A stretch of 64,000 nt of DNA, taken from assembly GCF_018350175.1 (NCBI RefSeq), contig NC_058382.1:56732001-56796000 (forward strand), in the 5' to 3' direction. Shown piece by piece: positions 50,573 through 58,395 of the stretch (position 1 is the first letter of the stretch; every line of letters starts with the position of its first letter). Made by a program: the position numbers and the translations under genes. The notes under the pieces were generated by a model. That model saw only the letters and a list, made by a program, of their open reading frames with translations, did not search any database and was not told the DNA's origin. The stretch comes from Felis catus (Eukaryota).

Positions 50573-50713
50573 ACTCTGGAAAACCCCAAGTATGAATTGA
50601 TCATCGAGGCTCAAGACATGGCCGGACTGGATGTCGGATTAACAGGCACGGCCACAGCCACCATCATGATCGATGACAAGAACGATCACCCCCCAAAGTT
50701 CACCAAGAAAGAG
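50573..50713 (+). CDS. CDH13: Internal coding exon of cadherin-13 (T-cadherin), probably exon 8; 47 aa covering the end of EC2 and the EC2-EC3 Ca2+-binding linker
   Basis: Acceptor tttcctctacAG (AG 50571-50572) and donor GAG|GTaagc (GT 50714-50715). The 141 nt translate to [47 protein letters not shown], with cadherin AxDxG-like and DxNDxxPxF motifs, matching mammalian CDH13 as I recall it. Confidence 0.96.
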
Positions 50714-55283: not shown

Positions 55284-56654
55284 AATTACTATTAATACAG
55301 CTTATTCAATTTTACGGACTTCTTTTTTAAAAAGCATGTAACTTTTGTACAAAAATGTACACAAATACTGAGTGATTTCATTCGTTACAAGTCAAACACG
55401 AAACCCGTATCAAGAAATAGAGCATGATTAGCAACTCAGAAACTTCCTAAAACCCTTCTCAGTCGCCTGCCTAAATGTATATTGCTTAAACCCACATACT
55501 TGGAAGTTTCCTTGTTATTTCCTTTTACTGACATCTAGCTTAATTCCACTCTGGTGGGAGAACACACTGATATGATTACAGTCCTTTGCTATTTAGTGAG
55601 ACTTGTTTTGCAACCCAGCATGTGATCAGATTTGATAAGCGGCCCATGTGCACTTGAAAACAATGTGAAATCTACAGTTGTTTGAGTTATTAGTTGTTTA
55701 CAGTTATTTTTGTTCAAATCTTCTATATATGTTGTCTGTTCATCTTTTTATTCTGTAAGTTCCTGAAAGAATACGATATCTATTATTGTAGATATATCTA
55801 TTTCTCCTGTTGCATCAAATTTTTCTTTGAGTATTTGAAGCTGTGTTATTAAGCGCATACAAATTTAAAATTGTTATATCTTCCTGATGTTTTGGTCTTT
55901 TATTATTACAAAACTTACTCTCTACCTCTGGAAATGCTTTTTGCTTTAACATTTACCTCCTCTGGTAGTAAAATGACTACTGTAGCCTTCTTAAGGTTAG
56001 TGTCATCATGCTATATTTTTTTCCATCCTTTCTTCTCTCAAGTTTTCTCTAATCTCATGTTAAAGTGTGTTTCTTATAAGCAATGTATATTTGGGTTTTG
56101 ATTTTTTTTTCACTTCTGGCAATCCCAGTCTTTTTACTTGGGTCAGTTTTTCCATTTACGTGTAATGCAAAGACCATATATTTGAGCTTAAATCTACCAA
56201 TTCTAATACTTATTTTCTGTCTGAGTACCTTCCTATAGTTATTTTTCTCTCATTTCTCACCTGTTTATTAATTAATCCATTATTTTTGTCGTTTAATATT
56301 CTACTATAAATTATTTATTACACTTAATTTTCATATTCTTGTACTAGTTTCTGAGAAGTTGAAATATACATCCTCGACTTACAGAGTCTAATGTGAATTA
56401 GCATTTTTACCACTTATGGATTCTTCAAGGACTTTAGGACAAGTAAATTACCTTTACCCCACTCCTATATCTTAAGATATTGTTGTCATGTTTTAATACT
56501 ACATGTTTTACATTTTACAAAAATATTATTTTATTTAATAAGCATTTATTCACCCTTTATATTATTACCTATTCCTTCATGTTTCTTTGCTTCCACATGG
56601 GATAATTTTCCTTCTGATTAAAGAATTCCTTTGTATTTTAAAAATAGTGCAGGT

Positions 56655-56660
56655 GTGCTC

Positions 56661-56711
<51 letters not shown>

Positions 56712-56760
56712 GGCCCCTACGCAAGGATGACACGCAAATTCGTGAAGCGTTCCATATTTT
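56655..56760 (+). pseudogene. RNU6: Full-length U6 snRNA retrocopy (5' part of a U6/L1 chimera)
   Basis: GTGCTCGCTTCGGCAGCAC...CGTGAAGCGTTCCATATTTT, 106 nt, one difference from canonical U6 (G65>A at 56719). ACAGAGA box at 56695-56701. Flanked by a TSD rather than U6 promoter sequence. Confidence 0.95.
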
Positions 56761-56811
56761 TATGGAAACCAATTTGACAATAAATTTCATATATTGAAAA
56801 AATAAATAAAT
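56761..56811 (+). mobile_element. Extreme 3' end of a felid L1 plus A-rich tail, fused to U6
   Basis: TATGGAAACCAATTTGACAATAAATTTCATA matches the felid L1 3' terminus as recalled; AATAAA at 56779-56784. TSD aaaaatagtgcaggt at 56640-56654 and 56812-56826. Confidence 0.8.
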
Positions 56812-57333
56812 AAAAATAGTGCAGGTATGATGGTGATAAATTCTCTCATTTATTATTATCATCTTTCTTGCCTGAATTTTTGATGTATATTTTCACTGGG
56901 CACAGAATCTCCGTTGATAGTTATTTTCGTGCAACACTTTCAAGGTGTCATTTCCTTGACTTCATTAACATGTCAGTTAACATTTATTGAAAGGTCAGCT
57001 GTCAGTATTCCTTTCCTCTCCATTGACAGAAATGTGGCCCTTCCTCTGGTTGCTTTTAATAACATTTCTTTGCTTTTACTTTTCCACAGTTTTATCATGG
57101 CATAATGAGGTGTCATTTAATTTGTTTTTATCACACTTGTTCCTTGTTCATAACTCAGCAAATATTTCTTTTGACCCATTTTCTCTTTTTCTTAGACTCT
57201 AACTATACATATATATTAAATTTCTATGCTTCTATTTTCCCTCATTCTTTTCCAGTTCACAAATTCTCTCTTCTGCTATGTCTAATCTTTTATATCCATC
57301 TATTAAGTTCTTAATTCCATTTATTGTACTTTA

Positions 57334-57540
57334 TTTTTTTAAGCTTATTTGCTTATTTTTTGACAGAGAGAAAGAGTACAGGTAGGGGAGGAGCAAAGAG
57401 AGAGAGGGAGAGAATCCCAAGAAGGCTCTGTGCTGTCAGCATAGAGGCAACACGGGGCTCGAACTCACAAACTGTGAGATCATGACCTGAGCTGAAATCC
57501 AGAGTTGGACGCTTAACTGACTGAGCCACCCAGGCACCCC
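57334..57540 (-). mobile_element. CAN-SINE
   Basis: TSD ttat(t/g)gtacttta; reverse head. Confidence 0.92.
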
Positions 57541-58395
57541 CAATTATGGTACTTTAGATATAATTTCCATGAATTTATTTTGTAGATTAAAATTCTCTGC
57601 TTCAGTTTTGCATTTTATCTATTTTTTAAATATATAACACAGAGTTACTTTAAATTCAATGTCTGTTAACTCCAGTATCTAGATCCCTTGTAAATCTATT
57701 TCTATTTTCAGTATTCTTCACTTGCTTTTTTGGTCATGTGTTCTGGTCCCTTGGCCTGCCTAGAATTTTTTTTTAACTCTGAATAACGCCTGTGACAATT
57801 TTTTAAAGGCAATTTTGGACTCTGGCTGATGTTGTATTCTACCAGAAAGGATTTACTTTTACTTTCTGAAACCAGTAAGAGTAGAAAAAGATAACTTTAA
57901 ATAAGTCTGGGATTGAGTTGGTTTATTGGGGAGTTTCAGTCTTTTATGAGGGCTAATCTACTTCCTGATTTCTTCTTGGTCTTCTGGGGTCCTGACTGCA
58001 AGTCTGGCATGTTTACAGAGGCTCTTCTTCCTCAGATCCCTAGCCTCGTGTCCCTGTGCCATTACAATTTAGAAAAGGCCTTCAGGGGAAAAGTTGATAG
58101 GATATTGGCCTCCCCTCACTGAGCCCGCTTCCCTCTCTGCACGATCCTGGACTCTCAATTTTGACTGCCTTGGGAGTTCCCCAGTGCTTTCACACAGGTG
58201 GAGTTTTTTGGGGGGTGTTAAATACACATTCTCAAGTCATTCTAGATTTGAGGGTTGGTCTGGAAGAACTTTGCTCGGATTACCATCCACAAAGATCATT
58301 CTTTTAATCTGAAGTATCAGGGAAAAGCAATAGTTATGTGTATGGAATTCACTGTGGCACAAAACATCCTAACATCTTCATTAAAAATATGGATT

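What the first reader, a model, noticed from the sequence alone, without database searches (positions are those of the whole stretch)
56640..56826. Young U6 snRNA/L1 chimeric retrogene carrying only about 35 nt of L1
Seen in sequence: a complete U6 (56655-56760, one substitution) ends in TTTTT and runs directly into ATGGAAACCAATTTGACAATAAATTTCATATATTG plus an A-rich tail. One perfect 15-bp TSD (aaaaatagtgcaggt) brackets the whole unit at a TTTT/AAAAA L1-endonuclease site, so the two RNAs integrated as a single event. Established: U6/L1 chimeras arise by RT template switching, or by RtcB ligation of U6 2',3'-cyclic phosphate ends to L1 RNA; such chimeras typically keep a short T run at the junction, as here. 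Inference: the L1 part is unusually short, and near-zero divergence suggests a recent, felid-specific and possibly polymorphic insertion. It is sense to CDH13, so a near-perfect U6 sequence and an AATAAA are carried in the pre-mRNA about 6 kb downstream of the exon. The single change (G65A) hits the first base of the ISL GCGCA loop.
Basis: partly seen in the sequence, partly recalled or inferred. Interest (0 to 1): 0.8.

Follow-up and report, generated by a model that had tools for sequence, protein, structure and literature searches.

The report
U6 snRNA fused to L1 tail
A dead retro-copy of the spliceosomal U6 RNA, joined to the last 35 bases of an L1 jumping gene and pasted as one piece into a CDH13 intron; it is a tidy but ordinary example of a well-known kind of chimera.

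Summary
Rfam finds a full U6 at 56655-56761 (115 bits). It differs from the genome's five promoter-bearing U6 genes only by G65A. It ends in T5 and runs straight into 35 nt (56762-56796). That stretch is the exact 3' end of the genome's commonest L1 variant: its 36-mer occurs 2250 times, the reversed control 0 times. A 15-nt A-rich tail follows, and one perfect 15-bp duplication at a TTTT/AAAAA site brackets the whole unit.

It is a U6/L1 chimeric processed pseudogene made in one L1-mediated insertion. The junction and the G65A change are each unique in the genome.

"Unusually short" is fair. Among the 41 U6 copies with an intact 3' end, 22 are L1 chimeras, and this one carries the shortest L1 piece: 36 nt as mapped, the next 60 nt. 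Older copies with about 18 to 40 nt exist.

"Young" is plausible but loosely bounded, resting on 1 change in about 157 nt. I found no sign of polymorphism: 20 runs under three organism labels hold nearly all of its words. Empty sites in other species could not be tested.

The class is well described, including counts for cat (PMC4476161). Interest is low.

The parts
56640..56654 (+). 5' target-site duplication AAAAATAGTGCAGGT. It begins at a TTTT|AAAAA step, the L1 endonuclease-type site.
   Evidence: exact 15-mer, only two copies in the window, mean expected by chance 0.01.
56655..56761 (+). Full-length U6 snRNA retro-copy, 107 nt, ending in five T.
   Evidence: RF00026, 115 bits, model 1-105 of 105; identical to 5 of 5 promoter-bearing U6 genes over positions 1-106 except G65A. 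Those genes encode only four T followed by G.
56719..56719 (+). G65A, the single substitution. It is the first base of the internal stem-loop pentaloop (GCGCA becomes ACGCA).
   Evidence: alignment to the genes, and a fold of nt 54-82 gives the same hairpin, -5.5 against -4.5 kcal/mol; the 29-mer carrying A65 occurs once in the genome, here.
56762..56796 (+). The last 35 nt of an L1 3' end, same orientation as U6. It is 36 nt if the fifth T belongs to L1.
   Evidence: the 36-mer from 56764 has 2250 exact copies in the genome and 0 in the reversed control; 20 of 20 sampled copies are preceded by L1 3'UTR and followed by an A tail; maps to the last 36 nt of reference L1 copies.
56779..56784 (+). 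AATAAA polyadenylation hexamer of the L1 piece, sense to CDH13.
   Evidence: It is 1 of 67 AATAAA on the + strand of the window.
56797..56811 (+). Short A-rich tail, AAAAAATAAATAAAT.
   Evidence: Similar (TAAA)n-patterned tails are seen on other L1 copies.
56812..56826 (+). 3' target-site duplication AAAAATAGTGCAGGT.
50573..50713 (+). Context: CDH13 (cadherin-13) coding exon upstream of the insertion. Boundaries are inferred from AG/GT and the homology.
   Evidence: open frame, cag|ACT...GAG|gtaagc. Pfam Cadherin, weak (E 0.049); 89 proteins at E 0.001 or better, nearly all named cadherin-13; best is Felis catus at 98%.

Best explanation
This is a U6/L1 chimeric processed pseudogene made in one L1 retrotransposition event. 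The confidence given (0.9) is for that single-event reading.

A mature U6 snRNA with its processed U5 end became joined to the last 35-36 nt plus poly(A) of an L1 transcript of the abundant carnivore subfamily. I favour RNA ligation of the U6 2',3'-cyclic phosphate to a 5'-OH left by cleavage of the L1 RNA (RtcB-type), at about 55%. A reverse-transcriptase template switch after copying poly(A) plus 35 nt is the alternative, at about 40%.

L1 ORF2p nicked the bottom strand at TTTTT/AAAA in a CDH13 intron and primed on the poly(A). It copied the L1 stub and then U6, leaving a 15-bp target-site duplication.

The copy lacks the external U6 promoter and is inert; it is carried passively in the CDH13 pre-mRNA. 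Shown: the anatomy, the identity of each part, the uniqueness of the junction, and presence in many sequencing runs. Inferred: the order of molecular steps, the age, and the lack of function.
For: **Parts**
- U6 is full length and equals the genome's own U6 genes except G65A.
- The 35 nt are identical to the modal L1 3' end: 2250 exact copies of the 36-mer, with 20 of 20 sampled copies in L1 context.

**One event**
- One perfect 15-bp duplication flanks the whole unit at an endonuclease-type site.
- Nothing lies between U6 and L1 except the T run.

**Mature U6 as substrate**
- 5 of 5 genes encode T4 followed by G, while 22 of 22 L1 chimeras among the well-preserved copies carry 5 or more T: 13 with exactly 5, including this one.
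- This fits the published U5>p end of mature U6 (PMC6789731, passages).

**Same class elsewhere in the genome**
- 22 of the 41 copies with an intact U6 3' 19-mer are L1 chimeras, each with its own duplication or breakpoint.

**Independent origin**
- The exact junction occurs once. At up to 3 mismatches there are 4 hits, and the other 3 are not U6.
- A65 occurs once in the genome.

**No promoter**
- The five genes show a TCACC[CA]TAAC-like box near -60 and a TATA box near -30. The window's upstream 80 nt shows neither at those places (the motif names are recalled).
Against: - No empty orthologous site was seen, so co-insertion of both parts rests on the single duplication alone.
- Ligation and template switching leave the same product and cannot be told apart here.
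- A 1-nt ambiguity exists at the junction: L1 has a T before ATGG, so the join could be U4 plus 36 nt. That also allows 1 nt of microhomology, as a template switch might use.
- The tail is short (15 nt) and interrupted by T, so its border with the A-rich duplication is uncertain by a few bases.
- No RNA data were examined, so "not transcribed on its own" is inferred only from the missing promoter.
Confidence: 0.9

Rival explanations
1. Same product, other route. L1 reverse transcriptase started on the L1 poly(A) at the nick, copied 35 nt, then switched template to the 3' end of a free U6 snRNA. This is the classical template-switch model. It is a sub-case of the single-event reading, not a rival to it.
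For: The model is in print (PMC4476161, passages; cited as the earlier hypothesis in PMC6789731). One nt of possible microhomology (T) lies at the junction. A very early switch would naturally give a very short L1 part.
Against: PMC6789731 (passages) reports that U6/L1 RNAs form without retrotransposition, and asks how ORF2p would switch to an RNA ending in poly(U). Nothing in this locus decides between the two routes.
Confidence: 0.38
2. Two separate insertions. A very short 5'-truncated L1 (such copies exist) and a U6 pseudogene landed next to each other at different times.
For: L1 copies of about 40-70 nt with their own duplications do exist in this genome (L045; L066).
Against: - Only one duplication exists, and it spans both parts.
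- There is no poly(A) after U6 and no duplication around the L1 stub alone.
- A second insertion would have had to hit the exact first base of the stub and reuse its duplication.
- The same architecture recurs 22 times among the 41 well-preserved U6 copies.
Confidence: 0.03
3. A secondary copy: DNA duplication, or retrotransposition of a transcript from an older U6/L1 chimera that acted as a master.
For: Five other loci align across U6 plus the short L1 end.
Against: Those loci have different breakpoints (about 18, 34, 38, 40 and 57 nt), different duplications and different flanks. The window's junction is unique, and so is A65. PMC11838501 (section 21) states that such chimeras do not go on propagating.
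Confidence: 0.02
4. A plain poly(A)-tailed U6 pseudogene whose tail only resembles L1 by chance.
For: None found.
Against: The piece matches the L1 3' terminus over 35 of 35 nt. The covering 36-mer occurs 2250 times against 0 for the reversed control and always sits at L1 ends.
Confidence: 0.01

Closest known systems
U6/L1 chimeric pseudogenes of mammals (Buzdin 2002/2003, recalled and seen only in reference lists; Doucet et al. 2015, PMC4476161; Moldovan et al. 2019, PMC6789731; PMC11838501)
   Same: - Full-length sense U6 ending in a short T run.
- Direct join to a 5'-truncated L1 3' end.
- A-rich tail.
- A 15-bp duplication, within the published 6-19 bp range.
- An L1 endonuclease-type target.
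- Each chimera a unique event.
   Different: Only in degree. The L1 part (35-36 nt) is the shortest of the 22 L1 chimeras in this genome's best-preserved set. The host is a carnivore, with a carnivore L1.
Poly(A)-tailed U6 processed pseudogenes (the 'Poly(A)' class of Doucet et al. 2015, Table 2)
   Same: Full-length U6, a duplication and an endonuclease-type site. With only 35 nt of L1, this copy sits close to that class, and an automated pipeline could have sorted it there.
   Different: Here 35 nt of L1 lie between the T run and the A tail. True members go straight from U6 into A's (for example L021, L023, L027).
Functional U6 snRNA genes (type 3 Pol III promoter)
   Same: The RNA-coding sequence is identical at 105 of 106 positions.
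   Different: The upstream proximal sequence element and TATA box are absent at the expected places. A duplication, an L1 stub and an A tail are present. The genes end in T4 followed by G.

Membership tests
U6 spliceosomal RNA sequence family (Rfam RF00026) | Sequence and structure match above the curated threshold over the full model. | tested here: met
   115 bits against a gathering score of 44, model positions 1-105 of 105.
Functional U6 gene | External promoter: TATA box near -30 and a proximal sequence element near -60, as in the genome's own genes. | tested here: not met
   5 of 5 genes show TATA/TAAATA about -30 and a TCACC[CA]TAAC-like box about -60. The window's upstream 80 nt is AT-rich intron without either at those positions. 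This was read by eye, not with a scoring model.
U6/L1 chimeric processed pseudogene | Full-length U6 ending in a run of about 4-8 T. | tested here: met
   107 nt ending in T5. Published range in PMC6789731.
U6/L1 chimeric processed pseudogene | Direct join, in the same orientation, to a 5'-truncated L1 that reaches the L1 3' end. | tested here: met
   35 of 35 nt equal the modal L1 terminus, and the piece maps to the last 36 nt of reference copies.
U6/L1 chimeric processed pseudogene | Poly(A) or A-rich tail after the L1 part. | tested here: met
   AAAAAATAAATAAAT, 15 nt, short and interrupted.
U6/L1 chimeric processed pseudogene | One target-site duplication flanking the whole unit, at an L1 endonuclease consensus (TTTT/AA). 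| tested here: met
   exact 15-bp duplication; the target reads TTTTT/AAAA on the bottom strand.
U6/L1 chimeric processed pseudogene | An empty orthologous or allelic site that lacks both parts together. | not testable with these tools
Poly(A)-only U6 processed pseudogene | The A tail follows the U6 T run directly. | tested here: not met
   35 nt of L1 intervene.

The most novel reading that the evidence does not exclude
The very short 3' pieces joined to U6 in this genome may not be random. Four short L1 stubs begin within a 7-nt stretch 34-40 nt from the L1 end: this locus, L004, L006 and L002. Three other pieces begin exactly at a polyadenylation hexamer: the L1 stub in L005 (which reads AATACA, one base off AATAAA), and the non-L1 pieces in L020 and L069. 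If real, these breakpoints would mark a protein-protected 3'-terminal fragment of polyadenylated RNAs, a footprint of ORF2p, poly(A)-binding or polyadenylation factors, that survives cleavage and is then ligated to U6. Genomic U6 chimeras would then be a natural record of the L1 RNP's 3' end. The sample is small and partly biased by the query used.
Probability: 0.08. Interest if true: 0.45.

Novelty: new member of a known kind. Interest (0 to 1): 0.14.

Why it matters
It matters little beyond annotation. The locus is a clean textbook U6/L1 chimera.

- It could serve as a presence/absence marker for carnivore phylogeny or population work, if an empty site is found.
- It shows that 35 nt of L1 plus an A tail is enough template for L1-mediated insertion. 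This fits the published view that ORF2p engages the poly(A) tract (PMC6789731, passage).
- For CDH13 it adds one more sense AATAAA and a U6-like stretch to a large intron, with no evidence of any effect.
- The genome-wide side result has modest comparative value: 22 of the 41 best-preserved U6 copies are L1 chimeras, all with 5 or more T, although the genes encode T4.

Tried and rejected
- **Read laying.** I sent window 56250-57250 with four runs, to look for reads skipping the insert. There is no direct view of filled or empty alleles and nothing follows from it.
- **Runs X22-X24 and X21.** X22-X24 have shares of 0.47-0.58 and X21 (a fourth organism label) 0.04. None was laid, so none is evidence of absence or of an empty allele.
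- **The search of earlier findings.** Nothing on this genome. The two notes returned concern other genomes and other chimeras and did not affect the reading.
- **Paper not held.** Buzdin et al. 2003 (PMC169886) is not in the library, so published length ranges of the L1 parts in the first catalogues were not seen. The supplementary tables of PMC11838501 and PMC4476161 were not opened, and they may list L1 lengths or this very locus.
- **Host repeat at the insertion site.** The flanks 55900-56639 and 56827-57600 were compared with all fetched loci. Only a dispersed repeat at about 57330-57550 matched. The immediate flanks matched nothing, so my impression that they are an old LINE remains unverified.
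- **Recurrent breakpoint.** Rejected: the exact junction is unique in the genome.
- **A65 from a variant U6 source gene.** Rejected: it has a single occurrence in the genome.
- **Copies left unresolved.** Pfam on the downstream frames of L090 and L071 gave nothing. These copies and L075 stay unresolved and are counted among the 14 non-gene, non-L1-chimera copies.
- **Structure and complex prediction.** These tools are not relevant to this finding and were not used.

Full report
**What is there**

Window 56640-56826 reads as follows:
- a 15-nt AAAAATAGTGCAGGT at 56640-56654;
- a 107-nt U6 at 56655-56761, ending in five T;
- 35 nt, ATGGAAACCAATTTGACAATAAATTTCATATATTG, at 56762-56796;
- a 15-nt tail, AAAAAATAAATAAAT, at 56797-56811;
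- the same 15-mer again at 56812-56826.

Rfam's U6 model matches over its whole length at 115 bits, against a gathering score of 44. The 15-mer has exactly two copies in the window at up to 1 mismatch; the chance expectation is 0.01, and 0 of 100 shuffles gave two. The 35-mer occurs once in the window.

**Is the 35-nt piece L1?**

Yes. The window lies in a 2.43-Gb genome held as G000.
- A 36-mer starting at the third base of the piece and running three bases into the tail (GGAAACC...ATATATTGAAA) has 2250 exact copies in that genome. The reversed control has 0.
- I looked at the first 20 listed places. In 20 of 20 the 36-mer is preceded by the same L1 3'UTR sequence (...gggcaccttttgggatgagcactgggtgttgtat) and followed by an A-rich tail.
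- Longer chimeras and ordinary L1 copies carry the same terminus behind L1 3'UTR and ORF2-like sequence.
- A second terminus variant (GTCAAT...ATATATTAAAA) has 102 exact copies.
- I sampled copies of both variants and compared only the L1-aligned parts next to the terminus. Window-type copies differ pairwise by a median of 4.1% (136 pairs). The other variant differs by 2.0% (55 pairs). The sample is small, and it is biased towards copies with an intact terminus.
- So the stub comes from the abundant, somewhat older variant, not from the youngest one.

**One event or two?**

The single perfect duplication spans both parts. No poly(A) follows U6, and no duplication surrounds the stub alone. The target reads gtatttt|aaaaat, that is TTTTT/AAAA on the bottom strand. 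That is the L1 endonuclease preference (established knowledge; the same hallmark is listed in PMC6789731).

**The U6 part**

Five U6 copies in the genome have TATA-type boxes near -30, a conserved TCACC[CA]TAAC-like box near -60, GC-rich downstream sequence and no duplication. I take these to be the genes.
- The window copy equals all five at positions 1-106 except G65A.
- The 29-mer carrying A65 occurs once in the genome. The change therefore arose in this copy or in its RNA or cDNA, not in a variant source gene.
- The window's upstream sequence has no such promoter boxes (read by eye). I infer that the copy is not transcribed as a U6 gene.

**The junction**

All five genes encode only four T followed by G, yet the window copy has five. 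Among the 41 genome copies that keep the exact U6 3' 19-mer, the 22 L1 chimeras all have five or more T: 13 have 5, 5 have 6, 1 has 7 and 3 have 8. Some of the longer runs may include T from L1.

This fits capture of mature U6, whose major form ends in five U with a 2',3'-cyclic phosphate (PMC6789731, passage). One base is ambiguous here: L1 has a T before ATGG, so the join could be U4 plus 36 nt of L1.

**Is it unusual?**

I classified those 41 copies.
- 5 are genes.
- 22 are L1 chimeras.
  - 19 have breakpoints mapped by BLAST against four reference L1 3' ends. The distances from the L1 end are about 36, 60, 88, 129, 148, 254, 258, 265, 393, 519, 519, 641, 650, 653, 660, 735, 801, 842 (or about 1100 by its duplication) and 1210 nt.
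  - 3 run into the L1 endonuclease or reverse-transcriptase domain by Pfam.
- 14 are something else: A-tailed copies, U6 joined to short non-L1 3' pieces, and ambiguous or unresolved cases, including L071, L075 and L090.

The window copy has the shortest L1 part of the 22. It is not unique in kind, though. A search with U6 plus the stub also found older chimeras (U6 identity 92-98%) with about 18, 34, 38, 40 and 57 nt of L1, each with its own flanks. That search favoured short stubs.

The exact junction occurs only here. At up to 3 mismatches there are 4 hits, and the other 3 are not next to U6.

**Known literature**

- Moldovan et al. 2019 (PMC6789731; abstract and passages) show RtcB-type ligation of U6>p to 5'-OH L1 RNA. 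They report junctions with about 4-8 T, duplications of 6-19 bp, and breakpoints throughout L1 without a motif.
- Doucet et al. 2015 (PMC4476161; passages and section 9 with Table 2) describe the template-switch model. For cat they list 1,918 U6 hits and 322 selected, of which 279 were analysed (262 with a duplication): 5 alone, 17 with a repeat, 21 poly(A) and 236 3'-truncated.
- PMC11838501 (section 21) states that each U6/L1 chimera is a unique event that does not propagate further. It also states that L1 truncation is more pronounced in chimeras than in L1 overall.

The kind is therefore fully described. I did not open the supplements and cannot say whether this locus is already listed.

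**Age and polymorphism**

- There is one change in 107 + 35 + 15 compared positions.
- All 7 CpG in U6 plus the stub are intact. Several older copies show TCGTG changed to TCATG.
- This points to a fairly recent insertion, but with one event the Poisson interval is wide (roughly 0.02-3.5% divergence, my calculation). It overlaps what the L1 variant's own spread implies.
- A run search on 56250-57250 returned 24 runs. Twenty of them, under three coded organism labels and from 11 studies, hold 0.95-0.96 of the 104 sampled words.
- I computed that an otherwise identical genome with an empty site could hold at most about 0.87, even counting words rescued by other fetched U6 and L1 copies. The probability of 99 or more of 104 words at that share is about 0.007.
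- So those runs carry the filled allele (inference). One of them may be the assembly's own source, and contigs cannot show heterozygosity.
- No genome of another species is available, so lineage restriction is untested.

**Gene context**

An open frame at 50573-50713 (+), bounded by cag| and |gtaagc, matches cadherin-13. The search returned 89 proteins at E 0.001 or better, the best being Felis catus at 98% identity. The insertion is sense and lies about 5.9 kb downstream of that exon. The window's + strand has 67 AATAAA hexamers, so the L1 hexamer adds nothing exceptional.

**Verdict**

This is a real, cleanly preserved U6/L1 chimeric processed pseudogene, formed in one L1-mediated event. It is notable only for the shortness of its L1 part. 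It is a member of a well-known kind and of low interest.

Noticed in passing
L020 (G000:C1:~1359936), L069 (G000:C22:~7502039), L005 (G000:C1:~182713700): Three U6 chimeras carry very short 3' pieces that begin exactly at a polyadenylation hexamer right after the T run. Two are non-L1 pieces: AATAAA plus about 12-14 nt plus poly(A). The third is an L1 stub that starts at the L1 hexamer, which in that copy reads AATACA. This may hint at a preferred breakpoint or a protected RNA end. With n=3 it could be chance.
   Followed up: partly
L009/L091; L008/L079/L012; L010/L025/L087/L073 (own-genome loci): Breakpoints of U6/L1 chimeras bunch at about 519 nt (two loci with the same start, ttttacccaagg), about 254-265 nt (three loci) and about 641-660 nt (four loci) from the L1 3' end. 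Each has different flanks. Published human data report no preferred L1 sites (PMC6789731). No statistical test was done.
   Followed up: partly
L014/L015 (G000:C15:81699152-81700442): Two U6 genes with identical promoters lie about 1.1 kb apart in opposite orientation, tail to tail. All five U6 genes end in T4 followed by G.
   Followed up: no
L082 (G000:C15:~71083385): A U6 copy is followed by only about 6 nt (GCTAAT) with no A tail, yet it is flanked by a 17-bp exact duplication that is not A-rich (TGGAATACAAAGGCAGA). This is an atypical insertion, possibly endonuclease-independent.
   Followed up: no
window ~57330-57550: A dispersed repeat matches many of the fetched loci at 75-84% identity, probably a carnivore SINE. 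It lies about 500 bp downstream of the chimera.
   Followed up: no
L045 (G000:C1:~4748000), L066 (G000:C21:~94578080): Ordinary L1 insertions of only about 40-70 nt with their own duplications. Extreme 5' truncation is therefore not confined to U6 chimeras.
   Followed up: no
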